Shown here in pieces: positions 1 through 19,245 of a stretch of 64,000 bases of DNA; within the stretch, counting starts at the first letter, position 1; the number at the start of each line of letters is the position of its first letter. The stretch lies in the sequence record NC_048170.1; one strand, written 5' to 3'. Origin of the DNA: Escherichia phage vB_EcoM_Goslar. The notes under the pieces are model-generated. The model was not told where the DNA came from, searched no databases, and saw only the letters and a list, made by a program, of their open reading frames with translations. The translations under genes and the position numbers were made by a program.

Positions 1-1091
1 TCGTCACCGAATTTAACAGCGTCTTTGAAGCCCTGGGATTTCTTACCGATGTTGCCTTTCAGCGCCAGCAGTTTGTCAGCCAGTGCTTCAACACCGCTAA
101 CCGCAGCAGCCAGCTGATTCAGGGACAGGACGGTAGCTTCAACTTCTTTTGCTTCGCCAGAGCGTTCCCAGGTTACTTTACCATCGTTGGCTTTGAAACC
201 CCAACCTGCCGGACCAGCAACGTCAGCGATCGCCGGAGCGTTCAGTTTATCAGCGTACTCGGTGTGAGACTTAGCAACAACGGTACCAACGAATTTATCA
301 GCACGATCGTCAGCAGCCTTCATTGCTTTCTCGAAGGTGTCGGCGATTTTAGTTGCGCCGGTAACCAGATCGTCGCCACCGATGTAGCCTGAAACGCCGC
401 CACCCAGTTTAACTTTGGTATTTTTAGCAGCGCCTTTACGCTTGCCGATCATTTCTTTCAGTTTAGCGGCACGTGCTTTCAGTTTGGTTGCGCCGTCGAA
501 GATACGATCCATGAACTTCACGAAGGTTTCCCAGGAAGTTTTCAGGAAGTTCTTGATGGTTGCCCACAGTTTCTGCCACCATTTTTGTTCTTCCAGGAAG
601 ATCATGTTGGTCGCATCGTAACGGGAAGCGGAACCACCGAAGCTTTCGAAGGACGGCATGGTTTCCGGCAGTTTGAAACCGATAGTACCACACAGACGTT
701 TCAGATTACGCATGTGTTCCTGAGCGGTTTGTGCAGACATACCACCGTCTTTCAGGTAGCTTTCGGTTGCAACAACGGTTTCCGTCAGTTCATCCATGGC
801 TTCATCCATGGCTTCTGCGGTTTCGTCGTCTTTTGCAATTTCGATAACAACAGCATCAACCTGCTCGATATCACCACGAACTTCGATAGCCAGTTCGGTT
901 TCAGCTGCGGTATCTTCAGCGATTTCAGCACGTTCGGTCAGTTCAGCCACAACGGTTTCATCCGCTGGTGCAGCATCAGCTGCCGGTTCTGCTTCAACGG
1001 TTGCCGCTGCATCCGGATCGATCTCAGCAGCCAGTTGAACCAGCTGTGCGTTAGATGGATTTGCGACAAGACGATCAAAAATAGAAGGCAT
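1..1091 (-). CDS. Partial CDS (N-terminal ~363 aa; 3' end beyond window edge): hypothetical abundant protein with acidic Ala/Glu/Asp/Thr-rich N-terminal region
   Basis: Continuous minus-strand frame from ATG near 1091 to position 1, not in ORF track because no stop in window; AAGGAAA Shine-Dalgarno 8 nt upstream; strongly optimised codon usage (CTG, CGT, GGT, AAA, GAA). Confidence 0.8.
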   Translation of the reverse strand, partial: MPSIFDRLVANPSNAQLVQLAAEIDPDAAATVEAEPAADAAPADETVVAELTERAEIAEDTAAETELAIEVRGDIEQVDAVVIEIAKDDETAEAMDEAMDELTETVVATESYLKDGGMSAQTAQEHMRNLKRLCGTIGFKLPETMPSFESFGGSASRYDATNMIFLEEQKWWQKLWATIKNFLKTSWETFVKFMDRIFDGATKLKARAAKLKEMIGKRKGAAKNTKVKLGGGVSGYIGGDDLVTGATKIADTFEKAMKAADDRADKFVGTVVAKSHTEYADKLNAPAIADVAGPAGWGFKANDGKVTWERSGEAKEVEATVLSLNQLAAAVSGVEALADKLLALKGNIGKKSQGFKDAVKFGD

Positions 1092-1155
1092 AATTTGTTT
1101 CCTTTACAATAAATTGCACATTAGCTAATGTGGCTTAAGTGAACCGTCAGCTCAC

Positions 1156-1686
1156 TTAAAAGCCCTTAAAACCCGGTGCCATAGGTTGCCCAAACACCGC
1201 ATTCAAAGTACATATGATGTCCTGGATGCCATTGTCCCAATGGAGCCAAGTACGCACCATCTCTTCGTCTGACAACGTGATATAACTCATAAGTTTACCG
1301 CTGCTTTCCAGACGTTGGTGTGAACTTAACGACTGACGATCTGACCAGTTATCAATCAATTGACCAGCAATCTGAACGTTCGTGTCTCGTCTACCCGTGT
1401 GAATGAACCGTAGTGTATCGCGGATAAACTCCAGACTGGTGAAATTCAGATTTGGGTTATGGCTGTTCATTTCCACCCAATCGGTGATGGGGTACATCAA
1501 ACGATAAAGGGTAGAAAGAACCTGACGTTCATATTTCCAGTCATCGAGAGGAGTACCGTCGACCAGACGCTGATACAAACTAACAACGTCGCGATCGTAG
1601 TTCTCCTGGCGTTTTACGCCGTTAACCGGAAATCCGAAGAACCCGGTACCGTATAACGTTAAAGGGACGTCACGAAGTGCACTCAT
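1156..1686 (-). CDS. Hypothetical protein (176 aa)
   Basis: ORF track; same strand as neighbours; 4-nt overlap with upstream gene suggests translational coupling. Confidence 0.75.
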   Translation of the reverse strand: MSALRDVPLTLYGTGFFGFPVNGVKRQENYDRDVVSLYQRLVDGTPLDDWKYERQVLSTLYRLMYPITDWVEMNSHNPNLNFTSLEFIRDTLRFIHTGRRDTNVQIAGQLIDNWSDRQSLSSHQRLESSGKLMSYITLSDEEMVRTWLHWDNGIQDIICTLNAVFGQPMAPGFKGF

Positions 1687-2585
1687 ACAGCCGCCTCTTC
1701 TTTTCGTTTGATGTCGTAACGAAGTTTCTTCAGTCGCTCTTCGTGATATTCGATCTGTTGCTGGATTTTTGGATCGTTGCCCGCATTCTGTTGCTTTTGC
1801 TTCAGTGACAAAATCCAGTACTCCAACGCTTGGGCTTCTTCTTTGGCTGCTTGTAACGACGCTTCTTCACGTTCGCTGCGCCAGATGCGATAACGGTAAA
1901 TAAGCGTGTTGGTCATTTGAGTGTCGGACCATGAGCCCATACGCATCGGGTCAGTATTACCCGCGTTGTATAAGCCATTACCAACACCGTCTTCATCAGA
2001 AACCACAACATCCGGGATTTTATCCAACCCAGCAAGGATCTGTTGTTTCTGTCCACACAGCACCTCGGTGGCAATGGCGAAACCGTACATGTTGGCGGTT
2101 AGGTAAGCAATCTCGTTTTTGGTGAAGAACTCACCAAGTGCTTTATCACCACCCGGCATGCTTTCGCAGATGACCGTCGCACGAAGCAGCGTACGAGCGT
2201 AGCTAACGTAGAAGCCCAGGGACTCAACAAGACGTACCAGAGCGGCTTCTTTGAAACTCAGACCGTCGGCAGCAACATCGATTTCCAGGTTTTTGTTAAC
2301 ACGTTTAACAATTTCTGGAATCAGATCAACAGCATTACGTAGCGCTAAGTGAACGTTTTCTACCCAGCTTCCAGAGCGAACGCGGGTTAAACGCTGGTGC
2401 AGATCCTTATCAGCAAGTTTCCATAAGGCGCTTTCCCCTTTTTGGAGAAGCGAAGCGGATGTCTCGTAGTAAGGAATCGCGGTGTTGTTGATTTCGTCAC
2501 GGATTGATTCAAGTGCGTCAGCAACACCGGTGCGTTTAAAAAGCGGTTTCAAACCGCGAATGAATTCTTTAAAATCAATTGCCAT
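1683..2585 (-). CDS. Hypothetical protein (300 aa)
   Basis: ORF track; tight spacing in a minus-strand operon. Confidence 0.8.
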   Translation of the reverse strand: MAIDFKEFIRGLKPLFKRTGVADALESIRDEINNTAIPYYETSASLLQKGESALWKLADKDLHQRLTRVRSGSWVENVHLALRNAVDLIPEIVKRVNKNLEIDVAADGLSFKEAALVRLVESLGFYVSYARTLLRATVICESMPGGDKALGEFFTKNEIAYLTANMYGFAIATEVLCGQKQQILAGLDKIPDVVVSDEDGVGNGLYNAGNTDPMRMGSWSDTQMTNTLIYRYRIWRSEREEASLQAAKEEAQALEYWILSLKQKQQNAGNDPKIQQQIEYHEERLKKLRYDIKRKEEAAV

Positions 2586-2624
2586 GAGTGAGCACCTATG
2601 CTATTTCGAAACAGGTTACGTGTA

Positions 2625-3731
2625 TTAACGAATCTGTGGGACGTTTCCGGTACGGAGCGCCTGGAGGATCGTCAGAAGATCGGAACCCGAAGTTGACGAA
2701 CTGTTGGATTTTTCCAGTTGCTTGAAGCTTACGGTGGTCCCTTGATCCAAGCTGTGGAAATAGAAGGTCACCATCTCTTCAGCTTCGTCGATGATGATCA
2801 ACTGCATTGCGAGGGCTTCAGCCATGACTTTCTGACGTGTGGTATAGTCAGATAAACGACGTCCGATCTTACGCTCGATGGCTTCCTGGTTAGCCTTAGA
2901 GATGATATAGGTGGAGGCGATTGCTCCAGAAGAAGGGATCTTTGTGCTCGCTGCAGCTTTTGCGGCATTGATGCGCGCAGCATTAACAGCCTTGCGGATA
3001 CCCTCTTTATCCATGCGTGAGATTCGTTTATGTTCACGAACCAGATCGCTAAGCAGGATCATATCGCTCCAGAAAGACAGCTCACCAGCCATCATGCGAT
3101 GCCAACGTGCTCGCCAGGTGTTCTGTGGGCCACCGATCGCTAAAATCGATGCAAGCACTTCCGCTGGAGAGCTTGCAATACGCATGCTGATGTTCAACGG
3201 CATTTTCATCGTTGCCTGACCATCGGTCAGCGTCACGGTTAAGAACTTGCCGGTGACCGCGTTCGCATCTTTGTTCAGCAATTCGATCGCCGCGTCGCTA
3301 GCTCCAACATCGAGGCTATTTTTTTGTTTCCCCTGCAGGTTGAATCCTTTGTCATCAAGGAAAACAAGGCTTTTGCTATCCGCACTTTCCAGCGCTAATT
3401 TGATAGCCTTATCCGTCAGATTAGCATTACGATTTGGGTTCACACGACCCAGCGTTTTATCTACACTGATGTTACCCACCTGCATGATGGTATTCAACGC
3501 CAGTAAATAGAACCCGGTATACATGTTTTCAGCGGTGCGCATGCAGTTGCCTAACGCATTGCGTGCGTCGCTATAATACAACTCACGTTCAAAGATCAAC
3601 GGCGCGATAACGCGTGAAGGTTGTGAGAGTTCAACCAGCGAACCTGGCTGGATAAGTTTATTAACTTCGTAGACTTTAGCGATACCGGACGCAACAACGT
3701 TAACAGCGTCGGCAATTTCTGATGCTACCAT
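2625..3731 (-). CDS. Hypothetical protein (368 aa)
   Basis: ORF track; coding-like codon usage. Confidence 0.8.
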   Translation of the reverse strand: MVASEIADAVNVVASGIAKVYEVNKLIQPGSLVELSQPSRVIAPLIFERELYYSDARNALGNCMRTAENMYTGFYLLALNTIMQVGNISVDKTLGRVNPNRNANLTDKAIKLALESADSKSLVFLDDKGFNLQGKQKNSLDVGASDAAIELLNKDANAVTGKFLTVTLTDGQATMKMPLNISMRIASSPAEVLASILAIGGPQNTWRARWHRMMAGELSFWSDMILLSDLVREHKRISRMDKEGIRKAVNAARINAAKAAASTKIPSSGAIASTYIISKANQEAIERKIGRRLSDYTTRQKVMAEALAMQLIIIDEAEEMVTFYFHSLDQGTTVSFKQLEKSNSSSTSGSDLLTILQALRTGNVPQIR

Positions 3732-3765
3732 ATTGAAATCCTTATTTACAAATAAAGGAAAGAAA

Positions 3766-4971
3766 ATGTCTAATTACTACGACCAAGCTATTCAAACCAT
3801 TCAGGAGAATAATGCGTCGTTAACACCCGAAGCTGTGGAGGCAGCGGGCAATGCGGTGTTATTCACTGATTCGGATTGGGCAATAGCGCGGAAGAATATT
3901 CGTACCAGTGTCGGTCAAGGGACATACGAGGACAGTATCGCCAGACGGTATCGGAACGTGTCACCTATTCCAGGTAACAGCCCGATCCCGATTAACCGCG
4001 ATCATTCCGGTATTACCTTCTTTACACGACCTAATTTACATCTTACCGACGCGAACTTAAAACGAGATCGACGTTTGTGGTCGTTACGCACGGATAACCC
4101 TAACAGTATTCAGGCTGTTGTCCGCGACTACTTGGACCCTGTGGGTGCCAGAAAGCGGAACCATCGAGGACGTGCCATCGTCGATGAGCGCAATCCATTC
4201 ATAAGTATACTGACGGACAACCTGACGGATATCAGCGGTTTCAATGACATGGAAATGCAGGTCTATCAGGGTAAACCGGGATTACGCCAAGAAACCGTTG
4301 TGATGGCTGACGGTTCAGTGGATATGTTTCAACCCTATAACCTGAACGCGACGTTCAAGAACATCATGGGTAACCCCATCATGTTCCTTCATTATATTTG
4401 GTTGATTTACATCGCTGGTGTGCATAATGGCGAACTGACGCCAAGCCCTCAGGCCATCATTGATAATGAAATGGATTACTGGACAAGATGTTATCGTATC
4501 ATCTTGGATCCGACTGGGATGTATGTTCGTTATATCTTCGCGCCGACCGCGATGTTTCCGGTTGGGCTACCGATTGGTAATATGGCCAACTACAGCATCG
4601 ATAAACCCTTCACGCAAGATAACGAACGTATCACTATTCCATACCAAGCGGTTGGTAACAACGCATTTGATGAGATTCTGAAGGATGAATTCAATCGACT
4701 TGTCCTGATGTTCTATTACGGTGAGAACGATACCCGTACGTTCCTTGAAGATGAGGAGTTGGTACCTATCTCACCCTACGAGCGTCGAATCATGTCGTAT
4801 CGTGTCGATATGTATCCATTTATTCATCCGTTGACCTCAGAGCTTCTTTGGTTCGTACCCGCTGATGATTACAACGAATTCTATCTGGACCTTGAGCCGT
4901 CGGCGTTACCACCGGATACGTTCAGTCGCGATCTTGTCCGTACCACCATTCCGCAAAATTACGAGGGATAA
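3766..4971 (+). CDS. Hypothetical protein (~401 aa); track start 3733 is a TTG, the ATG near 3766 has an AAGGAAAG RBS
   Basis: ORF track 3733..4971; internal Met (MSNYYDQ...) preceded by Shine-Dalgarno. Confidence 0.8.
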   Translation: MSNYYDQAIQTIQENNASLTPEAVEAAGNAVLFTDSDWAIARKNIRTSVGQGTYEDSIARRYRNVSPIPGNSPIPINRDHSGITFFTRPNLHLTDANLKRDRRLWSLRTDNPNSIQAVVRDYLDPVGARKRNHRGRAIVDERNPFISILTDNLTDISGFNDMEMQVYQGKPGLRQETVVMADGSVDMFQPYNLNATFKNIMGNPIMFLHYIWLIYIAGVHNGELTPSPQAIIDNEMDYWTRCYRIILDPTGMYVRYIFAPTAMFPVGLPIGNMANYSIDKPFTQDNERITIPYQAVGNNAFDEILKDEFNRLVLMFYYGENDTRTFLEDEELVPISPYERRIMSYRVDMYPFIHPLTSELLWFVPADDYNEFYLDLEPSALPPDTFSRDLVRTTIPQNYEG

Positions 4972-4974
4972 TAA

Positions 4975-7968
4975 ATGAGCGTAACCAACAAAGATCTTGC
5001 TGAACAGCTCAATCGCTATATGCTTTCACCTATTGAAATGCAGGCTGTTGCAAGCGATATGATCCGTTTGGCTTCTGATGGTGAATTAACCCTGGTTGAC
5101 CCCAGCTGTCCGTTTGTTTATCTGCTGGAGGTTGCAACGGCGACGGCGGCGAACCAGAACGCACGGGATGAATCCCGTGTTCGCGAACTGTATCCGAAGC
5201 TCGCAACGAACTGGAACCAGCTCTATCGTTGGATGTATGATGAGTCGTACGTTGGACGTTTCGCAATGCCGGGTAAAACGGAAATCATCTATTCGTTAGG
5301 GTATCAGGAAATCCTCGATCGCGCTGTAGAGATTCCCAACACCATCGCCTCCGATGATTTAAGCCGTTCTTACAGCCGTAAGTTAGTGATACCACGTACG
5401 ACGGCGTTTACGGTGGCTGGAATGGATTTCGGGTTGCATTATCCCATCGAAATCCAAGTACAAGCGCACGACCAGATCCGCGTCGTTTATAACACCGATA
5501 ACATCAGCCCATTGCAAACCTTGGAGAGTAACCAGGTTGAGTACGGGGTTGTTCGTGTAAAAGCGGGTAAAGTGTTGGTGATGCGTATTCCGCTGTTCCA
5601 GTTTAAAACACTGGTAAAAGATGTGCCGTTTAACAGCGTTCACGGGATGAACAGCAGCATTACCTTCGAAGATCAGTTTTACCATTGTCGTGCGTACATG
5701 TCGTCGGATAACGATACCTGGACGGAGATAGCGACAACACACAGTCAGCAGATCTACGATCCGTTAACACCAACCATCGCGTTACAAGTAGAAGGGAACA
5801 AACTTAACTGGCGTGTTCCTGAAATTTATTTGTCTCAAGGTACGATGGATAAAAGCACCATTCGACTTGAGGTGTTGACGACGAAAGGGAAAATCAGCGT
5901 CGACCCGTCTGATTACGACGTGACCGATTGGAAAGATAACTACATCGATTTGTCACCAAAAGCTGAACAGAAATACAGCGCGCCGCTAAGCGCATTCAAC
6001 ATTAAAGGGATTTATAGCGAAGGGGCATTGTCGGGTGGACGATCTGCATTAACGTTCGAGGAACAACGTGAACGTGTTATGGCGGGTGTGAACAAAACCA
6101 AGGTACCGATCACGGGAACGCAGGTAGAGCTGGTGCTTCAAGATGCGGGTTATGGGATGGTGACCACCATCGACAACGTAACCAATCGTTCGTTCCTGGC
6201 AACCCGAGATTTACCGCAATTGAGCGACAGCGTGCCGCAAGCCGGTTCGTTGATGGGGTCTTTCTATACGTCAGCTGCAGCATTGGTGAAAAGTAAGTTT
6301 GTCGCCGATAACGGCGATCGTATTACAATTAAACCTGACTGCCTGTATCGCGACAGTAACGGAAGTATCACGCTGTTGTCGGACGATGAAATTGACCGTA
6401 TTAATGCAGGCAACTCCGATGCGAAGTTGAACGCGGTAAACAACGCCATGTTGTTCTACAGTCCGTTTCATTACGTATTAGATGCAACAAGCGATTTCGA
6501 CATCCATGCTTATTACCTGGATGCCCCTAAGATCGGCACACAAGCATTCCTCGACGCGAACGAGACGATCCCGTTAACCGCTATGGTGACCGGATACCGT
6601 CTGGATCGTATCGCTGAAGGATATCGTCTAAGCCTCATTGTAGAAGGTAACGACGCATGGAAGGCGCTCGACGATAAAAACGTGCACATCCAGCTGGGAT
6701 TCAATCCGCGGGGTGAGGGTGATTATGCGACGATGCTGGCGTCACCGACAACCGATGAACAAGGTCGTCGTTTGTTCACCTTCGATATCACCACGAATTA
6801 CGATTTTACACGAATCCTGGCCGATGATTCCACGGCGTATGAACCGTATATCGCATTGACTTCGTTCTCGATGTATGAATCAACACCGCGGGATTATTGG
6901 GCATCACTGCAGCAGTATTTGGAAATCTTCCATGTGGTGACGGATTACGCGCCTGAAGATGTCGACGGTATCTTACACAGCGCTTCCGATAATTACCTGG
7001 TTAAGAAACTCACGCTTCAAAATGGGTATTGTTTCTACCGTGAACGTCTCACCGCAACCTTTGGTTATGATCTGGATGGTCTTTGGATGCGTTCTCGTAC
7101 GGTGGCCTCGGAGATCACGTATAAACGTTACACCGAGAACATTCCGTGGGTGTATGATGAAGATATCCCAGCGACGGATGAGACCGGTTCTGTTATCATT
7201 GAGCCGGGTGACGATGGTACGTTGTCGGTTAAATATCTGCATCGTAAAGGAGATCCGAAATTAAACAGTGATGGGAGCCAAGCCTATCGTTATCTGAAAG
7301 GCGACATCATGAAAGATAATTACGGTAATCCGATCCCCGTCGATGAACGTGAGGTTCTGCGTAACCTGGATATGTTCTTTATTGATGCATCGTATCTGTT
7401 AGCGAACGATACAGACGTGATTGAGTATCGTAATGCGATTCCTACGCAGCTTATCGAATGGATCCAGAACGATATCGACACGTTCAGGAATTTCTGTTAT
7501 GAAGAAACAGAGATTTCATTGTATCCTAAGCAATCGCTGGGGTATGTGGATGTTATTGTGGAAAACGGATTGGAAACGACGCTTCCTGCTGCCCTATCGT
7601 TCAACGTGACGCTGTACTTACCAGCTAAGCAATACGCTGACCTGGATTTACGTCAGGTCCTTCAAGCGATGGTATCGAAAGTCATCAATGAATGCTTAAC
7701 ATCCCGTACAGTGGCGAAAGCAGAAATGATCGCGATGATTCGTGAGGAGGGCGGTGACGACATCCTTAACGTTGAAATCGATGATTTTGGACCAGGTAAG
7801 AACCTCAGTGTTTATACCGCGAAGAACGATGGTGTTCGTTGTGCGGTGAAGAAAGAGCTTTATGTTAAAGCGGATGGTATCTTGTCCGTACGTGAAGCGA
7901 TCGATGTAAGTTTTGTGAAACATGCACAAAGCAACAGCACAGCGTTAGCGCAAGGCCTCCGTGTCTAA
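4975..7968 (+). CDS. Large hypothetical protein (997 aa), possibly virion structural
   Basis: ORF track; GAGGG RBS 9 nt upstream; starts 4 nt after previous stop. Confidence 0.85.
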   Translation: MSVTNKDLAEQLNRYMLSPIEMQAVASDMIRLASDGELTLVDPSCPFVYLLEVATATAANQNARDESRVRELYPKLATNWNQLYRWMYDESYVGRFAMPGKTEIIYSLGYQEILDRAVEIPNTIASDDLSRSYSRKLVIPRTTAFTVAGMDFGLHYPIEIQVQAHDQIRVVYNTDNISPLQTLESNQVEYGVVRVKAGKVLVMRIPLFQFKTLVKDVPFNSVHGMNSSITFEDQFYHCRAYMSSDNDTWTEIATTHSQQIYDPLTPTIALQVEGNKLNWRVPEIYLSQGTMDKSTIRLEVLTTKGKISVDPSDYDVTDWKDNYIDLSPKAEQKYSAPLSAFNIKGIYSEGALSGGRSALTFEEQRERVMAGVNKTKVPITGTQVELVLQDAGYGMVTTIDNVTNRSFLATRDLPQLSDSVPQAGSLMGSFYTSAAALVKSKFVADNGDRITIKPDCLYRDSNGSITLLSDDEIDRINAGNSDAKLNAVNNAMLFYSPFHYVLDATSDFDIHAYYLDAPKIGTQAFLDANETIPLTAMVTGYRLDRIAEGYRLSLIVEGNDAWKALDDKNVHIQLGFNPRGEGDYATMLASPTTDEQGRRLFTFDITTNYDFTRILADDSTAYEPYIALTSFSMYESTPRDYWASLQQYLEIFHVVTDYAPEDVDGILHSASDNYLVKKLTLQNGYCFYRERLTATFGYDLDGLWMRSRTVASEITYKRYTENIPWVYDEDIPATDETGSVIIEPGDDGTLSVKYLHRKGDPKLNSDGSQAYRYLKGDIMKDNYGNPIPVDEREVLRNLDMFFIDASYLLANDTDVIEYRNAIPTQLIEWIQNDIDTFRNFCYEETEISLYPKQSLGYVDVIVENGLETTLPAALSFNVTLYLPAKQYADLDLRQVLQAMVSKVINECLTSRTVAKAEMIAMIREEGGDDILNVEIDDFGPGKNLSVYTAKNDGVRCAVKKELYVKADGILSVREAIDVSFVKHAQSNSTALAQGLRV

Positions 7969-7983
7969 AACAAAATAGCGTGA

Positions 7984-8030
7984 GCATAACCCTCCTCCAA
8001 CCCGTAAGGGAAGGAGGAGGGAATATGCTG
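7984..8030. terminator. Bidirectional stem-loop between convergent genes (CCCTCCTCC / GGAGGAGGG arms, extended by CATAAC...ATGCTG flanks)
   Basis: Near-perfect inverted repeat read directly; lies between the + gene ending 7968 and the - gene ending 8031. Confidence 0.6.
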
Positions 8031-10823
8031 TTATCTTACGTTATTGCTATTCTGCTGTTCGCTGAACCAGCCATACACCTTGAGATCGGTACCGTATTTC
8101 AATGCGATATACGCATTCAGCGCAGCGCAGAACAAAGACGCGAATGCCCATATCAGCGAAGGATCGACGTCTTCCGTTACCACTGGGAGAGTATTATCCG
8201 GTTCCCATGATGGTGAACTGTCCATGAACGTCGCGTACCATCCCCGCCGTTGTTCTTCGGTGGTAAAGTCGCTATGGGGTTCCAATGCTTCTTTTGCCAG
8301 ACGTCGATATTCGAACATATGCGTTGCTAAAGCCGATGAGTTACCAGATTCGCCCTCATAGTTCGGATCCACCGCATAACAGAGTTCTGTTGAATCTAAC
8401 AAAGCAACCGCCTGTGTGATGCTGTCGGCAGTGCCTGCACCATAGAGCTCGATAGACCGCGAAAGCTTTTCACAGAACGCATTTAACGCGGAAGGATTGG
8501 ACACCTGAAGGTCAAGGCCTAATGTCCACGGATAGTTACTGAATACACCCGTAAACCGTGGCATAACACCCAACAGATGCTGTCCGATTACGGCACGGTT
8601 ATAAACAGCCCTGTTATAGACTTGAAGCGCGGCCTCCAGGGCTTGGTTATAATGACGACGAAGCTCGTCACGAGAGTTGCGGAACCTGTTTGCCGCAAGA
8701 CTTGTGGCTGCGACGCTACAAACATCGTAATTGGTGGACGAGAGCACAACCTCGTTAAGATCGAACGCTTCCTGTTTCAATGTTCCGCTAACAGCCGCTG
8801 CTTCGCTGTTCGCTTTATCGACAACTGTACTCAAAGCGTTAATATAACGTTTAGCTCGGACCTCCAACCATTGTGCGATACCGAGAATATCCACCGCAGC
8901 TTTAGCAAGATCACGTGCATTCACGATTTCGTTCTTCAATGCCCCTAAACCTTTATTTTCAGGCGATGAGGCTTGTTGACGAATCATGCTGTTCAACATG
9001 GTAAGCAGATTATCCAACTCATGTCCGCTGACCTTGTTACGTGCATCGGTAATCGGCCCTTGCAGGAATTTACGGCAACCGTCGTTGTATCGAATCAGTT
9101 TATCCACATCGATAGATTCGTTCGTGGATTCCTTGAACTGATCCTTCAATTCTTCACGGTAATCATGGATTTCACTTGCGAGATTATCGATAGTGATACC
9201 ATCATGTCCAAGAAGAACTTTATTGAAGTTACCTTTCTCGAATGCAAGAGTAAGACCTTCACGAATCTTAGCGAGTTTGTCCTGATCAAGTTCACGACCG
9301 TTCGATAGCTCTTTCACTTCCGAGCTGATTAATGCCGAAACGTTACCCAGATTGTCGGTAACCCCTTTGAACGCTCCCGACCAGATCGTTCCTGCTTCAG
9401 CATATTTCGCAATGGTCTGAATACCGACGGTATGTAACGATGCTAAGCGTTTCTTCGTGCCTTCGGTAAGCAGTGCGTCTTTAGCTCGCGTAAGCTGACT
9501 GTTATTAGCTTCCGCCTGCTGAATCGCTGCTTTCGCACTTCCATTACGCCAGCTCTTAACCAGCCAATCAACCAAACGTTTTAGGATATTGACGGTGTAT
9601 TCCATTGTCCGCCGTAACGTTTCCCACGCGCTTTCTGCGGTATAGATGCCGTACCCTTCCATCTTCGTTGGGTCAAAGAAACCTTCCTGCACGAGATCGG
9701 TACGTGTGTAGCCATCAGCAGCTTCTACTTCCGCCTGGGTTTTATCCCAGAAGTCGTCGCTCTTTGCAGCAATCGCTGTATCTTTAACGTCCAGGATGAT
9801 CTGACCAACCGTTTGTGCAAACAGCAAGGCTGCACGTACCGATTGTGCGAACATCCGCTGATATTTGATTCGAACGCATTGCATCTGGGTTAGCAGATTC
9901 AGTTGTGCGATCCCATCCAAGGTGCTATCCTGAGCAAGTCCTTCGGCTTTAGCGATAACCTGTTTTACACGTTCAGCGACATCACCGTACTGCTGGCAAA
10001 CATCCCGCAGAATACGTGCCGCGAAGACCCCGGTACCGATATAGTTCAATAGGTCTTTTAACGACCATTCGGTCGGACAATCGGTCGGCGCAATAGGGAG
10101 TAAGCAACCATCACCGTCCATGAATCTCTCTAATGCGCTAATATCCTGATTTTCTACGCTCATGGGGATATCGACATCAGCCGCTTGCAGATCCAGCATC
10201 TGTTGTAGGATGTTGGTATCGGCTTGTACAAGCGTCGCAAGCGCTTGGCTGTGTGCGATTATTGGTAACGCAGGTGACCATACTGCAGCAAGCTTGTCGG
10301 CGTGACGTTGAATGGCATACCCCATATCCTCGATCACATCGGGATGCTCGATAACCCCCTGAAGCGTTTGATGTAGCTCACCGAGTTGCTGAGACAGATC
10401 GACCATCATGGTGTTGAAGGTTTCGTCATCCTCTTTGTGGTTGTCCAGACGCTCGAGTTCATGTCGAAGCAATGTAACGAGCTGTCCGTTGCCTTCTTGC
10501 TTCAGCTTGCTTTCCATTAACGTAATGGCTTTATCGACGATCTGACACGCTTCACGAAAACCGGTTGTGGAAGGAAGCTCTGTCCATAACGCCAGCGGTT
10601 TACCGTCAAGGGCTTCCGGCATCGATAACGAAAGCATAGACAGTTGTTGACGTGATACTTGCTGTTCACGGTGTAATGTTTCTTTTAACGCCAGGAGATC
10701 GTCAAGAAACGCGCCGTTAAGGGTGGTCGTACGTGGTGTTGAATTAATACCGTCAGTTAACGATTCAAGCACCAGGAGACCGTTATCAGCTGAAGAGAGT
10801 CCCGCGGCAAGATATTTGTTCAT
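8031..10823 (-). CDS. Large hypothetical protein (930 aa)
   Basis: ORF track; start MNKYLAAG sits 12 nt downstream of a hairpin. Confidence 0.85.
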   Translation of the reverse strand: MNKYLAAGLSSADNGLLVLESLTDGINSTPRTTTLNGAFLDDLLALKETLHREQQVSRQQLSMLSLSMPEALDGKPLALWTELPSTTGFREACQIVDKAITLMESKLKQEGNGQLVTLLRHELERLDNHKEDDETFNTMMVDLSQQLGELHQTLQGVIEHPDVIEDMGYAIQRHADKLAAVWSPALPIIAHSQALATLVQADTNILQQMLDLQAADVDIPMSVENQDISALERFMDGDGCLLPIAPTDCPTEWSLKDLLNYIGTGVFAARILRDVCQQYGDVAERVKQVIAKAEGLAQDSTLDGIAQLNLLTQMQCVRIKYQRMFAQSVRAALLFAQTVGQIILDVKDTAIAAKSDDFWDKTQAEVEAADGYTRTDLVQEGFFDPTKMEGYGIYTAESAWETLRRTMEYTVNILKRLVDWLVKSWRNGSAKAAIQQAEANNSQLTRAKDALLTEGTKKRLASLHTVGIQTIAKYAEAGTIWSGAFKGVTDNLGNVSALISSEVKELSNGRELDQDKLAKIREGLTLAFEKGNFNKVLLGHDGITIDNLASEIHDYREELKDQFKESTNESIDVDKLIRYNDGCRKFLQGPITDARNKVSGHELDNLLTMLNSMIRQQASSPENKGLGALKNEIVNARDLAKAAVDILGIAQWLEVRAKRYINALSTVVDKANSEAAAVSGTLKQEAFDLNEVVLSSTNYDVCSVAATSLAANRFRNSRDELRRHYNQALEAALQVYNRAVYNRAVIGQHLLGVMPRFTGVFSNYPWTLGLDLQVSNPSALNAFCEKLSRSIELYGAGTADSITQAVALLDSTELCYAVDPNYEGESGNSSALATHMFEYRRLAKEALEPHSDFTTEEQRRGWYATFMDSSPSWEPDNTLPVVTEDVDPSLIWAFASLFCAALNAYIALKYGTDLKVYGWFSEQQNSNNVR

Positions 10824-10838
10824 AAAACACTCCGTTGG

Positions 10839-10869
10839 CCTAGGGGAAGGTTTTCAGCCTTCCCCTAGG
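10839..10869 (-). terminator. Stem-loop (CCTAGGGGAAGG / CCTTCCCCTAGG) between tandem minus-strand genes; terminator or attenuator
   Basis: 12-bp perfect inverted repeat; followed on the minus strand by GTTTTAT and then the next start codon. Confidence 0.5.
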
Positions 10870-10882
10870 GTTATAAACACAA

Positions 10883-13687
10883 TTAAGCTAATTTACCGAA
10901 ACCGGCTTTCTGCAGTTTCTCGTTGATGATTTTCGCTTCAGCGAAGACGTAATCGCGGTAGGCGGTCACTAACGCATCCACACGTGAACGCAAGGCTTCT
11001 TCGAAGCTATACCACGCAGCGATTTCACGAATCTGTGCGTTGATATAATCAACGGTTGAGCGAAGCTCGGTTGCGTTTTCCTGCGGGATGGCTTTCACCT
11101 GGCGAGCAACGTCATTTAAACGACGGAACTGTGTTTCGATTTCTTTAAACTTATTGTCGGCAAGTTTGCTGAATTCGTCACCAGAACGGGTAAATAACAG
11201 ATAGCTGTTGCCATCAAGTGCGGTCGCTAACTGCTGAAGTACGTTGGTGTCCGGATACACAGGAGTACCGCTTTGCAGTACCTTCTCACCGAATTCCGCG
11301 AAGTCCTTCGGTGGTAAGTGCGCAGACGTTGTCAACTCGTTGAAACGGAAAGTCAGCGAACTATCATACAACATCCGGTACGCTTCCATACCCTGCTTCA
11401 TGGTGCCAGCCAGGTTGGCCAGACGCGGAGCAATCTCACCCTCTTTAGCGCGTTTCTGGTCTTCTAACGCCCCTTCGAGTTCTTTACACTGGTCGTTCAG
11501 ATACACGATACGATCGGGACGCAGACGACGCATCTCACGAAGAATGGTATCCAGCTTACCTTCCTGGAAATAACCTAGCGTTAAAGACGTACACGCTTGC
11601 TGAAGACGATCGAACACCGGTAAGGTTACCATCTCCTTACGGATACCATCAACAATCGCAGAAACAGCCGAAAGTTTCTGTTCTGTCGTTAATGGAACAT
11701 CAGAGACCGACTTGCTGGGCGCACCAACAACGTTACGCATTGCGTCGGTATCCTCGGTTTTATCAACCTCTTTACGAACATGCTCATCAGGAACATAAAC
11801 GTTCGCATTACGTTTCGCCTGCTTGATGGCATCGTTGGCCGCTTTTTCGGTGGCTGCTACGCTATCGGCACGTTTCTTCAAGAGTTCAATAATCCAGAGC
11901 ACCAGACGACGAATCGCAGTATAGGCCGTCGTGATGATGACACCGATAACAGCCATCTTCATGATACCGAACGATTCCATGGTCGGCTCTAATGCCTGGT
12001 CTGGCATATAGCGTTCACGCAGCTCCAGATAGATCTGCTCATCCGGTTTGCTGATCTCGCCACGATGCGAAGTCCGATAGATGGCTTCGTCAATCTCAAC
12101 AAGATCTTTGCGTGCCTGACGGTCTGTTTCGGTCAAATAAGCGCAGCCGGATACGTCGTCTTCAAAACTTTCGAACTTAAAGAAATCGACAACCATCTTG
12201 GCAAGCGCCTCTTTCTTAGCAGGATCGAGTGTCTTCGCATCTTCTTTTTGCTTATCCATTTTTTCCTTGAATTTCTCTTTGTAGTCATTCAAGGGTTTTA
12301 CCGCTCTTGCTTTCAACGCGTTATAGATAGCTTTCCACTCATCGTTACGTTCGAGGACAATGAAATGGTTTTTGAGTTCGAAAGCGCGATAGCGTGCAAC
12401 GAGCTGTTCTACCTGAATATGAGCGAGTTGGATATCCATTAACCAACGCGACATCGCCGAGATCAAACGGCTATAAGCGAACAACGTTTGGTAGGTTAAC
12501 TTCATGTATGTTTCATACAGCTCAATATCGCCGCTCTGAATATTGGCTGTTGGATTCATTTCCTTTGTTGCCTTGAAGACCTGTTCTGCTTCTCTCAGCG
12601 TCTTTTCGAACTTAACGTCATTAAACGCAGTGAATGGTTCAGCCAACTCATGCATTTTATCGTGGAGTTCGCGGATCCAAGCTTCCTTGCTGTCGCGGAT
12701 GGTGTTTTCATCATGGAGCACGGTTTGATGTTTTCGTACCCATTCTTCCACGATATCAGCAGCGGAAACAATCGGAACGCGATCTGAAATGAGCGGGACG
12801 ATCGTGTGAAGCGCCCCGACACATTCTGGCGTGTCCCAGTGTTTCTGGAGTTCATCACGGAAACGGTTAATGTTTTCTAAGGTGGTACCTAAATCAAGGA
12901 AAGTGCCGCCATTATGACTCATCTGTGCAACCAGATCGGCAAATACCTTTTGTTTTTCGATGACAAAAGGAACCATCCGCATAAGCCATTCAGCAGTTGC
13001 TTTAGCCTTTTCTTTCAGGTTCTTATCGGCGATTTCTTTAAGGTTAATCGCGCTACCGTATCCTGCAAGTTCGTTGTAGACGTCGTTAACCGTCATCTCT
13101 TTATCCAACATTTCTTTGAAACGTGGATAATCTGCACCTAACGCGTCGATGACTTCTTGGATGATGTCGTCTGTGGTAGCGATAAATTTATTTGTGCCGC
13201 CGTAATGGTTCCAGATTTTCTGTAGCGTCTTCTTAAAGAATTCGAAGACGAATGTCCAGATACGCTTAATGAGTTCCCAGACTTTCTTCGCACCATCGAC
13301 AAACAGTTTAGAGACTTTGGCAACGAATCCTTCCTGCACCAACTCAACGCCGTTACGTGATGGAATTTCGGTGAAGAAAGCATCTGGCAGTTGTTTCGGG
13401 AACGCGTCACCAAGACGCATACGCAATTCGGGTACATCGGCACGAGAAATACCGCGCGTCGTTAACTGCTCGTGAAGACGAACGTTTTCTTCACCAGAGG
13501 CTACGAATTCGTTAACGTCAAATGACACCAGTTCTTGATCTTCGGTGGTGACGACGCTTGAACCATCACTGGTTTGGATGTCTTCGTCAGGGAATGCCAT
13601 GAGCATACCGTGACGCATTTCAACCACTCCGTAATCGGTTGCTAAACCGAATTCGTTGTGATCGGGGGTAATAACTGGGATACTCAT
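10883..13687 (-). CDS. Large hypothetical protein (934 aa), helical/charged, one hydrophobic segment
   Basis: ORF track. Confidence 0.85.
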   Translation of the reverse strand: MSIPVITPDHNEFGLATDYGVVEMRHGMLMAFPDEDIQTSDGSSVVTTEDQELVSFDVNEFVASGEENVRLHEQLTTRGISRADVPELRMRLGDAFPKQLPDAFFTEIPSRNGVELVQEGFVAKVSKLFVDGAKKVWELIKRIWTFVFEFFKKTLQKIWNHYGGTNKFIATTDDIIQEVIDALGADYPRFKEMLDKEMTVNDVYNELAGYGSAINLKEIADKNLKEKAKATAEWLMRMVPFVIEKQKVFADLVAQMSHNGGTFLDLGTTLENINRFRDELQKHWDTPECVGALHTIVPLISDRVPIVSAADIVEEWVRKHQTVLHDENTIRDSKEAWIRELHDKMHELAEPFTAFNDVKFEKTLREAEQVFKATKEMNPTANIQSGDIELYETYMKLTYQTLFAYSRLISAMSRWLMDIQLAHIQVEQLVARYRAFELKNHFIVLERNDEWKAIYNALKARAVKPLNDYKEKFKEKMDKQKEDAKTLDPAKKEALAKMVVDFFKFESFEDDVSGCAYLTETDRQARKDLVEIDEAIYRTSHRGEISKPDEQIYLELRERYMPDQALEPTMESFGIMKMAVIGVIITTAYTAIRRLVLWIIELLKKRADSVAATEKAANDAIKQAKRNANVYVPDEHVRKEVDKTEDTDAMRNVVGAPSKSVSDVPLTTEQKLSAVSAIVDGIRKEMVTLPVFDRLQQACTSLTLGYFQEGKLDTILREMRRLRPDRIVYLNDQCKELEGALEDQKRAKEGEIAPRLANLAGTMKQGMEAYRMLYDSSLTFRFNELTTSAHLPPKDFAEFGEKVLQSGTPVYPDTNVLQQLATALDGNSYLLFTRSGDEFSKLADNKFKEIETQFRRLNDVARQVKAIPQENATELRSTVDYINAQIREIAAWYSFEEALRSRVDALVTAYRDYVFAEAKIINEKLQKAGFGKLA

Positions 13688-14124
13688 GCATTCTCTCCTT
13701 GCAGTGCGTTAGCGAAAGCTGTTGCGAGCTGCGCAACCAGTTTCGGATCAACGCCTTCGATAACGTCAGGCAGCCCTGCGGTTTCTTGGTCACGAACAGC
13801 GGAGGCTAATAACAGCATGGTTTCAGGCGCGGTTGGCTCATGCACCATGCGGTAACGCAGGCACCAGAAGTAGCGGGCAACGTCTAACGCATCAGCCAGC
13901 CCAATAACCAGCACCTTGTTCAGTTTATCCAACCCGTCACGGATTTTAGGGAGATGTTCACGAACGAAGATGCTATCCGCAGTCAGATCTTCTTTTTCAG
14001 CGAATACCGGCATGCTGTAACCGGCGATGTAACCTGCGGCAATACTTAACGCGCGGGTCTGTTGTTCGGCTGGGAAGTCACGTACCAGGTCTTTCAGCTG
14101 AACGGCGAAATCAGAAATATTCAT
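13684..14124 (-). CDS. Hypothetical protein (146 aa)
   Basis: ORF track; 4-nt overlap with downstream gene. Confidence 0.75.
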   Translation of the reverse strand: MNISDFAVQLKDLVRDFPAEQQTRALSIAAGYIAGYSMPVFAEKEDLTADSIFVREHLPKIRDGLDKLNKVLVIGLADALDVARYFWCLRYRMVHEPTAPETMLLLASAVRDQETAGLPDVIEGVDPKLVAQLATAFANALQGENA

Positions 14125-15689: not shown

Positions 15690-17189
15690 ATGAGCGAACA
15701 AGAACGAAAACCTAAGAAGAAACTGCTCGGTATTCAATGTCGACACATCAGCTATAACGAAGCGAACGATGGCAGCAAGAACGACCTCATGATCGCAAAA
15801 GAGATCATGTTCTTTGATGATAATACGCAAGCGACGAACCTTCGCTTCTTTGAGAATTACAAACGTCCGTTTTGGGTGACAGTAGAGAGTAAACGTAAGA
15901 ACAAATATAAAAAGGAAAGCGAGAAGCTGTCACATGTGCGACGCTACGATGTCCGTCAAAGTGAACTGGTTGAAAAGATCAGTTCGGTGCTTTATAAAAG
16001 ACGTGCCGATGATAACACCCGTTTACAGCAGCTTGCACGGAGTCCATACCTCTATGGAACGGACGTTAGCGCCAGCTGTTATTTAAAAACCCAATACAAT
16101 ACAAAATGGCCGGAATACGTCGATAAATTACCCGCTTCTATCGCCTGTTTCGATATCGAAACTGACGTTGTCCATGGACACGGTAAGATCGTCTGTATGT
16201 CTATTACAATGGGATACAATGCGATACTTTGCTATACCAAGGACTTCGTTGGTCATATTCCGAATGCGATTGAGAAAACTCATGAGAAGATTCGATATTA
16301 TCTGGCCGAACGTCTGAATACCAAAGAAGATCCTCACGCGTTCGAAAAATATCATTACGATGTGCGAATCGTAGAAAGTCCGGCACAAGCGGTCATCCAA
16401 TGCATGCAAAAGGTTCACGAATGGCAGCCGGATTATCTCCTCGGCTGGAATATCGCGTTCGATATTCCGCGCATGCTCCAGGCACTGAACGAGGAAGGGT
16501 ATCGTCCCGAGGATGTTTTCTCCGATCCTCGTGTACCACCTAAATATCGTATTGCTCGCTGGGTACCACCGAAGACCGACAAGGTATCTGCTTCAGGTCG
16601 TAAAACCAACCTTACCCTCGAGCAGACCTGGCCGATGTTTTATACGATGGCTACGTATCAGGTTATGGATGCGATGTGTGGCTATAAGTTCGTTCGTTTA
16701 GGAAGACCGGATGAAGGACGCTATTCACTCGATGCGGTATTAGAGCGAAATAAATGCCATACGAAATTAAAAGCGATTCCTGGTACAGAAGGGTTCACGG
16801 AGCTTGCGTGGCACGAAGAAATGCAAACGAACCATCAAATCGACTACGGCGTATATAACCTTTGGGATAACCAAGGCATCGAGGCGTTGGACCAGAAAAC
16901 AAAAGACTATTCGATGACCATCCCTATCCGTTTAGCGGCGTCGGATTTGAAAGATTTCAGTTCTAACCCTAAACGTATCTGCGATAAACTTTTCTTCGTT
17001 TATCTTAACCGTGGGGAAGTCATGGGATGCACCGCCGACGACATGACCCAGGAAGAAGATAAGTGGGTTATCTCACGAACCGGACATATCGTCACATTAC
17101 CATGCGATCTCATGGCGGACAACGGCATTCATCTCTTCTGGGATATGCCTAATTTAAGGAGCTATATTCGATTATTTGTTGCGGATTAA
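15690..17189 (+). CDS. Family B DNA polymerase (E. coli Pol II-like) 3'-5' exonuclease domain; ORF ends before the polymerase palm motifs
   Basis: Exo I CFDIETD, Exo II GWNIAFDIPRML, Exo III YNLWD in canonical order and spacing; no motif A/B/C in this ORF. Confidence 0.7.
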   Translation: MSEQERKPKKKLLGIQCRHISYNEANDGSKNDLMIAKEIMFFDDNTQATNLRFFENYKRPFWVTVESKRKNKYKKESEKLSHVRRYDVRQSELVEKISSVLYKRRADDNTRLQQLARSPYLYGTDVSASCYLKTQYNTKWPEYVDKLPASIACFDIETDVVHGHGKIVCMSITMGYNAILCYTKDFVGHIPNAIEKTHEKIRYYLAERLNTKEDPHAFEKYHYDVRIVESPAQAVIQCMQKVHEWQPDYLLGWNIAFDIPRMLQALNEEGYRPEDVFSDPRVPPKYRIARWVPPKTDKVSASGRKTNLTLEQTWPMFYTMATYQVMDAMCGYKFVRLGRPDEGRYSLDAVLERNKCHTKLKAIPGTEGFTELAWHEEMQTNHQIDYGVYNLWDNQGIEALDQKTKDYSMTIPIRLAASDLKDFSSNPKRICDKLFFVYLNRGEVMGCTADDMTQEEDKWVISRTGHIVTLPCDLMADNGIHLFWDMPNLRSYIRLFVAD

Positions 17190-17257
17190 CCTTCGTTCTG
17201 TAAAAGTTTACTTCATGTAAGAATCGTGTGCGGCATAAGAGAGGCCGATACATCTAG

Positions 17258-18469: not shown

Positions 18470-18504
18470 CAGGTCCCCCTACTTGTAATGAGTGGGTGAA
18501 CTCT

Positions 18505-18905: not shown

Positions 18906-18948
18906 TTCGTTGTGTTCATGTATAGAAATTACTGAACCATCGTAAGAG

Positions 18949-19203: not shown

Positions 19204-19245
19204 ATCAAGTATGTTGATCCTCGTTTAACAAAAAGAAAACGCATG

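What the first reader, a model, noticed from the sequence alone, without database searches (positions are those of the whole stretch)
1..1091. Strongly codon-optimised gene with a low-complexity acidic N-terminus and antisense shadow ORFs
The truncated minus-strand gene at the window edge uses almost exclusively high-expression codons, unlike most other genes here, and begins with an approximately 100-aa Ala/Glu/Asp/Thr-rich region. Its antisense strand gives spurious Ser/Ala-rich ORFs (585..1112 and 796..1038). This is probably one of the most abundant phage proteins, such as a major structural or shell protein, but I could not identify it.
Basis: seen in the sequence. Interest (0 to 1): 0.45.

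Follow-up and report, generated by a model that had tools for sequence, protein, structure and literature searches.

The report
Goslar gp58: most abundant packaged head protein
The gene cut off at the window edge is gp58 of the E. coli jumbo phage Goslar, a known internal head protein packed at about 2,000 copies per virion and injected with the DNA, which explains its extreme codon optimisation and the empty open frames on its opposite strand.

Summary
The minus-strand gene at 1..1091 holds 363 of 440 codons. Its E. coli codon adaptation index (CAI) is 0.73, against a window mean of 0.29 (SD 0.09). Its effective number of codons is 29.6; the next lowest is 40.6. Residues 1-110 are acidic, with net charge -27.

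The window is phage Goslar, and the gene is gp058. It matches Pfam PF12699 (phiKZ-like internal head proteins) at 67.7 bits against a cutoff of 27. It lies at the same syntenic position as SPN3US gp53. Published virion peptides assigned to gp058 match the window sequence.

Published virion mass spectrometry puts gp58 at about 2,150 copies, the highest share of any virion protein. Published imaging shows it is injected with the DNA. It is not the capsid shell (gp41) or the nuclear shell.

The antisense ORFs are by-products. The gene has 0 TTA, 0 CTA and 1 TCA codon, so the codon-aligned antisense frame has one stop in 363 codons.

By homology the acidic N-terminus is probably a propeptide cut by the prohead protease. 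This is not shown for Goslar, and some N-terminal peptides persist in virions.

Verdict: already known, low interest.

The parts
1..1091 (-). Coding sequence of Goslar gp058 (PF12699 internal head / 'inner body' protein). Codons 1-363 of 440 are present; the C-terminal 77 codons lie beyond the window edge.
   Evidence: Translation. The full 440-aa gene is seen in near-identical contigs. Window residues plus the common 77-aa tail give 47,017.6 Da, against 47,018.1 Da listed for YP_009820743.1 / HOV27_gp058. Published gp058 peptides match the window sequence.
1100..1104 (-). Shine-Dalgarno AAGGA, 8 nt upstream of the ATG at 1091..1089
   Evidence: Read directly from the sequence.
762..1091 (-). 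Acidic, low-complexity N-terminal region (residues 1-110, net charge -27). It is predicted disordered and is a probable propeptide or capsid-targeting region.
   Evidence: Composition and charge. pLDDT is below 50 for residues 1-96. It contains five A-X-E motifs. SPN3US gp53 has a 125-residue propeptide cut at A-X-E; for gp54, 124 residues was first predicted and 137 later measured, with cleavage also at E-124.
588..761 (-). Nearly invariant segment (residues 111-168) carrying candidate maturation sites ATE110|S, AQE125|H, SFE149|S and LEE168|Q
   Evidence: These Glu residues are invariant between two lineages at 46% identity. Only 1 of 58 columns varies among 49 Goslar-clade homologues. The SPN3US gp53 maturation site (AQE|GWKETL) aligns near residue 168.
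36..839 (-). Match to Pfam PF12699 phiKZ_IP (residues 85-352)
   Evidence: 67.7 bits, E = 1.4e-18, gathering cutoff 27. PHROG 'internal head protein' families also match.
3..587 (-). Basic, mostly helical body (residues 169-363 in the window, continuing to 440). It begins with a Trp/Lys-rich amphipathic helix.
   Evidence: AlphaFold predicts helices 163-217, 242-275, 324-371 and 377-426, with pLDDT 75-92 in parts. The highest helical hydrophobic moment, 0.68, is at residues 187-204. Net charge of residues 111-440 is +10.
585..1112 (+). Antisense 'shadow' ORF (175 aa) in the codon-aligned frame; not a gene
   Evidence: The sense gene has 0 TTA, 0 CTA and 1 TCA codon, so this frame has 1 stop in 363 codons, against 3.55 +/- 1.55 per 100 codons for other genes. 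The open run of 233 codons is typical for the gene's own codon usage (285 +/- 78). Stop positions differ among relatives. No Pfam match.
796..1038 (+). Antisense ORF (80 aa, Ser/Ala-rich); not a gene
   Evidence: Its open run of 92 codons is shorter than expected for this protein sequence under synonymous resampling (107-148 codons). No Pfam match.
1156..1686 (-). Upstream neighbour gp059, the phiKZ gp91-like vertex-binding protein (context and synteny anchor)
   Evidence: PF25618 at 159 bits. Its mass matches gp059 in Table S4.

Best explanation
The gene is gp058 of Escherichia phage vB_EcoM_Goslar. It is the dominant member of the PF12699 family of phiKZ-like internal head ('inner body') proteins.

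**Shown:**
- It is made late in very large amounts.
- About 2,000 copies are packaged inside each capsid with the DNA.
- It is injected with the genome into the early-infection vesicle.
- Its codons are as optimised for E. coli as those of the major capsid protein.
- Codon adaptation across the window tracks measured virion copy number.

**Inferred by homology:**
- The acidic, disordered N-terminal 110-168 residues act as an assembly or targeting propeptide.
- This region neutralises the basic helical body.
- The prohead protease cuts it after Glu in S/A/G-X-E-type motifs during head maturation.

**Antisense ORFs:** they are a mechanical result of avoiding TTA, CTA and TCA codons. The reverse complements of these codons are the three stop codons.
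For: **Identity**
- Window proteins exactly match Goslar_00060, 00061 and 00063.
- 26 window ORFs match Goslar protein masses from gp058 to gp126 in order.
- Published peptides assigned to gp058 occur in the window sequence: ADAAPADETVVAELTER, AEIAEDTAAETELAIEVR, DGGMSAQTAQEHMR and AADDRADKFVGTVVAK.

**Family**
- PF12699 at 67.7 bits against a cutoff of 27.
- Gene order is the same as SPN3US gp48-gp54.

**Abundance and injection**
- About 2,150 copies per virion, the top fraction in the table.
- gp58-sfGFP is packaged and injected.

**Codon bias tracks copy number**
- CAI by gene, with copies per virion:
  - gp58: 0.73 (about 2,150 copies)
  - gp53: 0.41 (about 330)
  - gp57: 0.37 (about 50)
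  - gp56: 0.34 (about 60)
  - gp55: 0.29 (about 50)
  - gp54: 0.23 (about 70)

- Spearman rho is 0.62 (p = 7e-8) over 62 window ORFs.
- The Goslar-clade capsid protein has CAI 0.74.
- SPN3US gp53 is 0.69, gp54 0.65 and the capsid protein 0.72, against a mean of 0.38.
- An orthologue at 46% identity has CAI 0.75 against neighbours at 0.27-0.54.

**Propeptide**
- SPN3US gp53 has a 125-residue propeptide cut at A-X-E. For gp54, 124 residues was first predicted and 137 later measured, with cleavage also at E-124.
- phiKZ PF12699 paralogues are proteolysed during packaging.
- The first 157 residues of the Goslar capsid protein are missing from the cryoEM density.
- Candidate Glu sites are invariant between lineages.

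**Antisense**
-.
Against: - Cleavage of gp58 has not been shown.
- Purified-virion mass spectrometry detects peptides from residues 38-54, 55-72 and 115-131. So the N-terminal region is not fully removed, and E125 is not cut quantitatively.
- Peak areas of those peptides are low (230-11,800, against a protein total of 1.08e7 over 87 peptides). Only peptides alphabetically from A to ELK were readable, so stoichiometry cannot be judged.
- ATE-110 becomes TTE in the distant lineage.
- No ordered inner body was seen in Goslar cryoEM, and the authors state that the role of PF12699 proteins is unknown.
- The prohead protease gene is not in the window or in the loci held.
Confidence: 0.85

Rival explanations
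1. The acidic N-terminal region is not a disposable propeptide. It stays on, or inside the capsid with, the mature protein and has a function of its own. Possible functions are a polyanionic counter-charge to the basic domain and DNA, or cargo that acts after injection.
For: Peptides from residues 38-72 and 115-131 are present in purified virions. Residues 55-168 are the most conserved part of the protein within the Goslar clade, with 5 of 114 columns variable against 75 of 115 for residues 221-335. SPN3US gp53 propeptide fragments are also incompletely cleared from heads.
Against: These peptides have low peak areas for a protein with 1.08e7 total area. In every studied homologue the region is cut off. 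Virion sequence coverage is 69%, which is compatible with loss of much of the N-terminus.
Confidence: 0.2
2. The gene encodes the major capsid protein or the phage-nucleus shell protein (chimallin). These were the first reader's two examples.
For: Only the codon bias and abundance, which such proteins would also be expected to show. The capsid protein of this clade has CAI 0.74.
Against: The capsid protein is gp41. It has 740 aa, was found in L012, and is 26% identical to SPN3US gp75. Chimallin is a separate entry in the virion table. gp58 matches only PF12699 and was not modelled in the capsid shell.
Confidence: 0.01
3. One or both antisense ORFs (585..1112 and 796..1038) are real overlapping genes.
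For: They are long and open. The frame-1 ORF boundaries are the same in the close relatives, but the sequence there is almost invariant anyway.
Against: The open frames are fully accounted for by codon usage. Stop positions in the codon-aligned frame vary among relatives: none, 234, 246+275, 175+234, and 6 in the distant lineage. There is no family match. The capsid gene casts an even longer shadow ORF of 766 aa, longer than the gene itself. pN/pS of 0.03-0.23 in the sense frame shows that selection acts on the sense protein.
Confidence: 0.02
4. The codon usage reflects recent horizontal acquisition from the host or a local composition anomaly, not expression level.
For: CAI at the level of E. 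coli ribosomal proteins. GC is slightly higher in the first kilobase: 0.509 against about 0.46-0.49 in most of the window.
Against: The family is specific to phiKZ-like phages, and the gene sits in a conserved head-gene block. GC3 is 0.47, the same as the window. The bias is retained in an orthologue at 46% identity and in SPN3US paralogues. It also scales with measured copy number.
Confidence: 0.02

Closest known systems
Escherichia phage vB_EcoM_Goslar gp058 (YP_009820743.1, HOV27_gp058)
   Same: It is this gene. The flanking proteins are exact matches, the mass agrees, and published peptides match the window sequence.
   Different: Nothing differs, apart from the window missing the last 77 codons. 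The strong codon adaptation and the shadow ORFs did not come up in my term searches of the two Goslar papers, which I did not read in full.
Salmonella phage SPN3US gp53 and gp54 (paralogue family A, pfam12699)
   Same: Same position after the gp91-like gene. Both have an acidic N-terminal region of about 125 residues followed by a W/K-rich amphipathic helix. Both are among the most abundant virion proteins, at more than 600 copies each, with high CAI of 0.69 and 0.65.
   Different: Pairwise similarity is very weak (BLASTP E = 0.011, 24% identity). SPN3US has two co-dominant paralogues, while Goslar has one dominant paralogue and five minor ones. Cleavage sites are mapped experimentally in SPN3US but not in Goslar.
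Pseudomonas phage phiKZ gp93 (also gp92, 94-97, 162, 163), the inner body proteins
   Same: PF12699 domain. Encoded in a syntenic operon, packaged, proteolysed, injected with the DNA, and associated with the early-infection vesicle.
   Different: phiKZ spreads the load over several paralogues at about 100-200 copies each. An ordered inner body was seen in low-resolution phiKZ studies but not in Goslar cryoEM.
Phage T4 internal proteins IPI-III and Alt
   Same: They work in a similar way. They are high-copy proteins targeted to the prohead core by an N-terminal sequence that the prohead protease removes after Glu, then packaged with the DNA and injected.
   Different: No sequence relationship. 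T4 targeting sequences are 10-20 residues long, not more than 100.

Membership tests
PF12699 phiKZ-like internal head proteins | Sequence match to the family profile above the curated threshold | tested here: met
   67.7 bits against a cutoff of 27, E = 1.4e-18, residues 85-352. PHROG 5750, 2497 and 6807 'internal head protein' also match. A profile search found 990 relatives at E<=1e-3, most of them 400-480 aa.
PF12699 phiKZ-like internal head proteins | Location in the conserved head-gene block, directly after the gp91-like vertex protein and at the head of a tandem array of paralogues | tested here: met
   The order gp63-gp62-gp61-gp60-gp59-gp58 mirrors SPN3US gp48-gp53. Downstream genes gp57 and gp54 give weak PF12699 matches. 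gp53-gp57 share the fold.
PF12699 phiKZ-like internal head proteins | Packaged in the virion at high copy number | tested here: met
   Published Table S4 lists gp058 at about 2,150 copies, the highest fraction. I confirmed that its peptides and mass match the window gene.
PF12699 phiKZ-like internal head proteins | N-terminal propeptide removed by the prohead protease after Glu (S/A/G-X-E or A-X-E) | tested here: inconclusive
   Thirteen such motifs are present. Five lie in residues 1-110, and the Glu residues at 110, 125, 149 and 168 are invariant. Virion peptides from residues 38-72 and 115-131 are detected at low area. The site-defining semi-tryptic peptides fall outside the readable part of the table. 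The protease gene is not in the held sequence.
PF12699 phiKZ-like internal head proteins | Ejected into the host cell with the genome | not testable with these tools
   Reported for Goslar gp58-sfGFP, with 92.5% of foci associated with injected DNA at 10 min.
HK97-fold major capsid protein of phiKZ-like phages | Homology to the capsid shell protein | tested here: not met
   The capsid protein is a different gene, gp41. In L012 7053-9275 it is 26% identical to SPN3US gp75 at E = 8e-51. gp58 matches only PF12699.
Chimallin (phage nucleus shell) | Identity with or homology to ChmA | tested here: not met
   Chimallin is a separate Goslar protein in Table S4 (69.6 kDa). gp58 has no such match in Pfam or PHROGs, in the PDB by sequence or by fold.

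The most novel reading that the evidence does not exclude
The near-invariant acidic N-terminal 110-168 residues may be more than a throw-away propeptide. They could mask the Trp/Lys-rich amphipathic helix that begins near residue 169. Cleavage in the capsid, with part of the polyanion retained, would then arm about 2,000 copies of a membrane-active or DNA-coating protein. Once injected, these copies would help gather host inner-membrane lipid into the early-infection vesicle. That would give the PF12699 family the function it currently lacks.
Probability: 0.1. Interest if true: 0.6.

Novelty: already known. Interest (0 to 1): 0.15.

Why it matters
It settles the finding. The strange-looking gene is a well-documented protein, and its oddities have ordinary causes. 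The codon bias comes from translational selection on the highest-copy virion protein. The acidic head is a family-wide N-terminal region. The antisense ORFs are a codon-usage artefact.

Two small points have practical use.
- Codon adaptation alone picked out the most abundant Goslar virion proteins in this window: gp58, gp77, gp66, gp60, gp88 and gp70.
- Shadow ORFs of such genes can beat the real gene in naive longest-ORF calling, as happened to me with the capsid gene.

The real open question is what PF12699 proteins do. Sequence analysis does not answer it.

Tried and rejected
- **Phage collection.** Megablast and tblastn of the gene, and of 25 kb of the window, found nothing. E. coli complete genomes also gave nothing. 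The collection evidently lacks Goslar, since a conserved 997-aa virion protein reached only 34% identity or less.
- **PDB.** A sequence search of the full protein gave only chance hits at E of about 1. A Foldseek search of the AlphaFold model (mean pLDDT 60) gave only generic helical bundles with E>0.2.
- **Homology search.** A second word-indexed search with an alignment added no distant relatives.
- **Regulatory and RNA signals.** The promoter and terminator scan of 1-2000 found nothing. The upstream intergenic hairpins fold no better than shuffles (z = -1.4). Rfam found nothing in the window.
- **Avs5 defence system.** I checked whether the hypervariable middle of gp58 might reflect recognition by Avs5. 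The Avs5 trigger is a different protein, JADA. pN/pS stays at or below 0.23, so there is no sign of positive selection.
- **Prohead protease.** A search for an SPN3US gp245 homologue in the window and held loci found none. The paper's supplement has no protease annotation.
- **Thomas et al. 2012.** This phiKZ proteolysis paper is not held.

Full report
**1. What is in the sequence**

On the minus strand an ATG at 1091..1089 follows an AAGGA Shine-Dalgarno (1100-1104) with an 8-nt spacer. The frame stays open to the window edge, giving 363 codons.

**2. Codon bias**

I called 62 non-overlapping ORFs of at least 100 codons in the window.

- The edge gene scores 0.727. The window mean is 0.292 (SD 0.086) and the runner-up is 0.464.
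- The effective number of codons, which needs no reference set, is 29.6. The next lowest is 40.6.
- Re-drawing synonymous codons for the same protein from window-average usage gives 0.330 +/- 0.022, maximum 0.410 in 5000 draws. The observed value is 18 SD out.
- Leu is 96% CTG (21% elsewhere), Thr 84% ACC (33%), Val 80% GTT (39%) and Ile 88% ATC (50%).
- Codons with w<0.1 are 2.9% of the gene against 24.7% elsewhere.
- GC3 is 0.47, the same as the window, so the bias is specific to codons.
- The bias is uniform along the gene except for the first 40 codons, which score 0.51.

**3. The N-terminus**

Residues 1-110 are 22.7% Ala, 17.3% Glu, 10.9% Asp, 10% Val and 8.2% Thr. They hold 31 acidic and 4 basic residues, for a net charge of -27. 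Residues 111-440 have net charge +10. An AlphaFold model built from seven homologues has pLDDT below 50 for residues 1-96. It predicts a mostly helical body with long helices at 163-217, 242-275, 324-371 and 377-426.

**4. Identity**

*Family and synteny.* Pfam assigns the protein to PF12699, phiKZ-like internal head proteins (67.7 bits, cutoff 27). PHROGs gives 'internal head protein'. The upstream neighbour is the phiKZ gp91-like vertex-binding protein.

*Full-length gene.* Looking up the neighbour's exact sequence returned contigs of about 237-244 kb that are 94-98% identical over the compared 4.7 kb and carry the complete 440-443-codon gene.

*Match to Goslar.*
- Exact-sequence look-ups showed that window proteins are Goslar_00060, Goslar_00061 and Goslar_00063 of Escherichia phage vB_EcoM_Goslar.
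- Matching ORF masses to the published Goslar virion table placed 26 window ORFs from gp058 to gp126 in order.
- The window's 363 residues plus the common 77-residue tail weigh 47,017.6 Da. The table lists 47,018.1 Da for YP_009820743.1, gp058.
- Peptides the authors assigned to gp058 are in the window translation. One of them, DAVKFGDDMEADLSK, runs across the window edge.

The gene is therefore Goslar gp58.

*Absence from the phage collection.* The collection offered here does not contain Goslar, which is why DNA and protein searches there found nothing.

**5. What is known about gp58**

- A 2026 preprint on the Goslar virion structure estimates about 2,150 copies of gp58 per virion (range 1,432-3,378). 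This is the largest copy-number fraction of any protein: 0.129, against 0.062 for the 1,615-copy capsid protein gp41.
- The paralogues gp53 to gp57 are present at about 330, 70, 50, 60 and 50 copies.
- No ordered inner body was seen by cryoEM. The authors call the role of PF12699 proteins an unsolved mystery.
- An earlier study from the same groups used gp58-sfGFP as a marker. The fusion is packaged, injected with the DNA, and stays with the early-infection vesicle next to the phage nucleus.
- In phiKZ, gp93 and its paralogues behave the same way, are proteolysed during packaging, and gp93 associates with the phage DNA.

**6. Why the codons are optimised**

Codon adaptation follows measured abundance.

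| Gene | CAI | Copies per virion |
|---|---|---|
| gp58 | 0.73 | about 2,150 |
| gp53 | 0.41 | about 330 |
| gp57 | 0.37 | about 50 |
| gp56 | 0.34 | about 60 |
| gp55 | 0.29 | about 50 |
| gp54 | 0.23 | about 70 |

- Over all 62 window ORFs, Spearman rho between CAI and virion copy number is 0.62 (p = 7e-8). Undetected proteins were set to zero. Over the 26 matched proteins alone, rho is 0.49 (p = 0.011).
- Among the next-highest CAI genes in the window are gp77 (capsid decorator), gp66 (vertex complex), gp60, gp88 and gp70. All are high-copy virion proteins.
- Walking outward in related contigs reached the capsid gene, gp41. It has 740 aa, as published, and CAI 0.74.
- In SPN3US the positional counterparts gp53 and gp54 score 0.69 and 0.65, and the capsid protein scores 0.72, against a mean of 0.38. 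gp53 and gp54 are present at more than 600 copies each and are more abundant than the tail sheath.
- An orthologue from a different lineage, 46% identical, scores 0.75 among neighbours at 0.27-0.54.

The bias is therefore an old, maintained trait of the dominant paralogue. It fits translational selection on a protein needed in very large amounts late in infection.

**7. The antisense ORFs**

In the codon-aligned antisense frame a stop can arise only from a sense TTA, CTA or TCA codon. The gene has 0, 0 and 1 of these. That frame therefore has one stop in 363 codons, where other window genes average 3.55 per 100 codons.

- The open run of 233 codons is what the gene's own codon usage predicts (285 +/- 78). 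It is rare under window-average usage (110 +/- 33; 0.25% of draws reach it).
- The second ORF lies in another frame and is shorter than resampling predicts.
- In relatives the codon-aligned frame has 0-2 stops at shifting positions.
- Neither ORF matches any Pfam family.
- pN/pS in the sense frame is 0.03-0.23.
- The capsid gene has none of the three codons and casts a 766-codon shadow ORF, longer than the gene itself. My own longest-ORF caller picked the shadow by mistake.

**8. The acidic region: probable propeptide, not proven**

*Evidence from relatives.*
- SPN3US gp53 loses 125 N-terminal residues at A-X-E sites.
- For gp54, 124 residues was first predicted and 137 later measured, with cleavage also at E-124.
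- In both, the propeptide is cut at several sites.
- Some gp53 propeptide fragments stay in the head.
- The mature proteins start at an amphipathic W/K-rich helix, (E)GWKETLKDLFER and (E)SLWDDIK.

*Candidate sites in gp58.*
- gp58 has five A-X-E motifs within residues 1-110.
- The Glu residues at ATE110|S, AQE125|H, SFE149|S and LEE168|Q are invariant between lineages.
- The last of these aligns with the SPN3US gp53 site and sits just before WWQKLWATIKNFLK.
- The Goslar capsid protein lacks density for its first 157 residues, which its authors take as evidence of processing.

*Evidence against complete removal.*
- The virion data contain peptides from residues 38-54, 55-72 and 115-131.
- Their areas are 230-11,800, where the protein total is 1.08e7 over 87 peptides.
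- Only peptides alphabetically up to 'ELK' are readable, so neither stoichiometry nor the diagnostic semi-tryptic peptides could be checked.

I rate removal of most of the region at about 0.6-0.7. The exact site is open.

*Conservation.* The 'low-complexity' region is not loosely constrained. Among 49 Goslar-clade homologues, 5 of 114 columns vary in residues 55-168, against 75 of 115 in residues 221-335. Synonymous diversity follows the same pattern: 0.03 for codons 1-110 and 0.26 for codons 221-335. This points to mosaic recombination in the middle of the gene and not to positive selection.

**9. Comparison and verdict**

The gene is Goslar gp58, so it is already known. It meets the tested defining features of the PF12699 family. 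The exception is proteolytic processing, which is inconclusive here. It is not the capsid shell or chimallin.

What remains unknown is the function of this protein family. My only addition is the unproven suggestion that the acidic region masks an amphipathic, possibly membrane-active or DNA-binding helix until maturation.

Noticed in passing
L012 6978-9278 (+) over 7053-9275 (-): The Goslar-clade major capsid gene (740 aa, CAI 0.74, no TTA, CTA or TCA codons) has a fully open codon-aligned antisense ORF of 766 aa. This is longer than the real gene, and a longest-ORF rule mis-calls the locus.
   Followed up: yes
Loci L001-L006 and the cluster members listed: Near-complete Goslar-like genomes (contigs of about 236-259 kb) occur in many assemblies labelled as isolates of Salmonella enterica, E. 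coli, Shigella flexneri and sonnei, and Enterobacter hormaechei, and in gut metagenomes. The gp59 sequence alone was seen on 273 contigs. For a lytic nucleus-forming phage this suggests a carrier state or phage carried along in cultures.
   Followed up: no
window 87-431 (codons 221-335 of gp58), compared with 588-927 (codons 55-168): Diversity within the Goslar clade is mosaic. The middle of the protein is hypervariable (75 of 115 columns, pS 0.26). The acidic region and linker are almost invariant (5 of 114 columns, pS 0.03-0.06). pN/pS is below 0.25 throughout.
   Followed up: partly
window 15690-19288: A DNA polymerase fragment (PHROG 3011, profile positions 5-494 of 576) ends at ...FVAD. 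An HNH/NUMOD1 homing-endonuclease gene follows at 17258-18469. No plus-strand ORF of 50 aa or more lies in 18470-19288, and there is no Rfam intron match. This may be a split or invaded polymerase gene.
   Followed up: partly
window 13684-14124, 23413-24051, 33923-34426, 19289-19774 (all minus strand): After gp58, the genes in the window with the highest CAI include gp66 (0.43), gp77 (0.46), gp88 (0.39) and gp70 (0.38). All are reported at roughly 170-1,000 copies per virion. Codon adaptation alone therefore flags the abundant virion proteins.
   Followed up: yes
L002 10596-16087 (N-termini of gp58, gp57, gp56, gp55): The paralogues share a loose N-terminal motif, seen by eye: MPSIFDRL, MVHIPLFATQ, MARISLFDNV and ...MTSLFQGI. 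Each is followed by an acidic stretch. This recalls the identical 15-residue N-termini of SPN3US gp53 and gp54 and could be a capsid-targeting signal.
   Followed up: no
window 1092-1155: The 64-nt spacer between gp59 and gp58 holds two short hairpins (TTAAGTGA...TCACTTAA and CACATTAG/CTAATGTG). Folding is no better than shuffled sequence (z = -1.4). No sigma-70-like promoter or terminator was found.
   Followed up: partly
window 30469-33081 (-): An 870-aa protein combines DUF7941 with non-contractile tail-sheath-like domains (PF25613, PF23844, PF23845). It belongs to the DUF7941 family that the Goslar structure paper links to long baseplate filaments.
   Followed up: no
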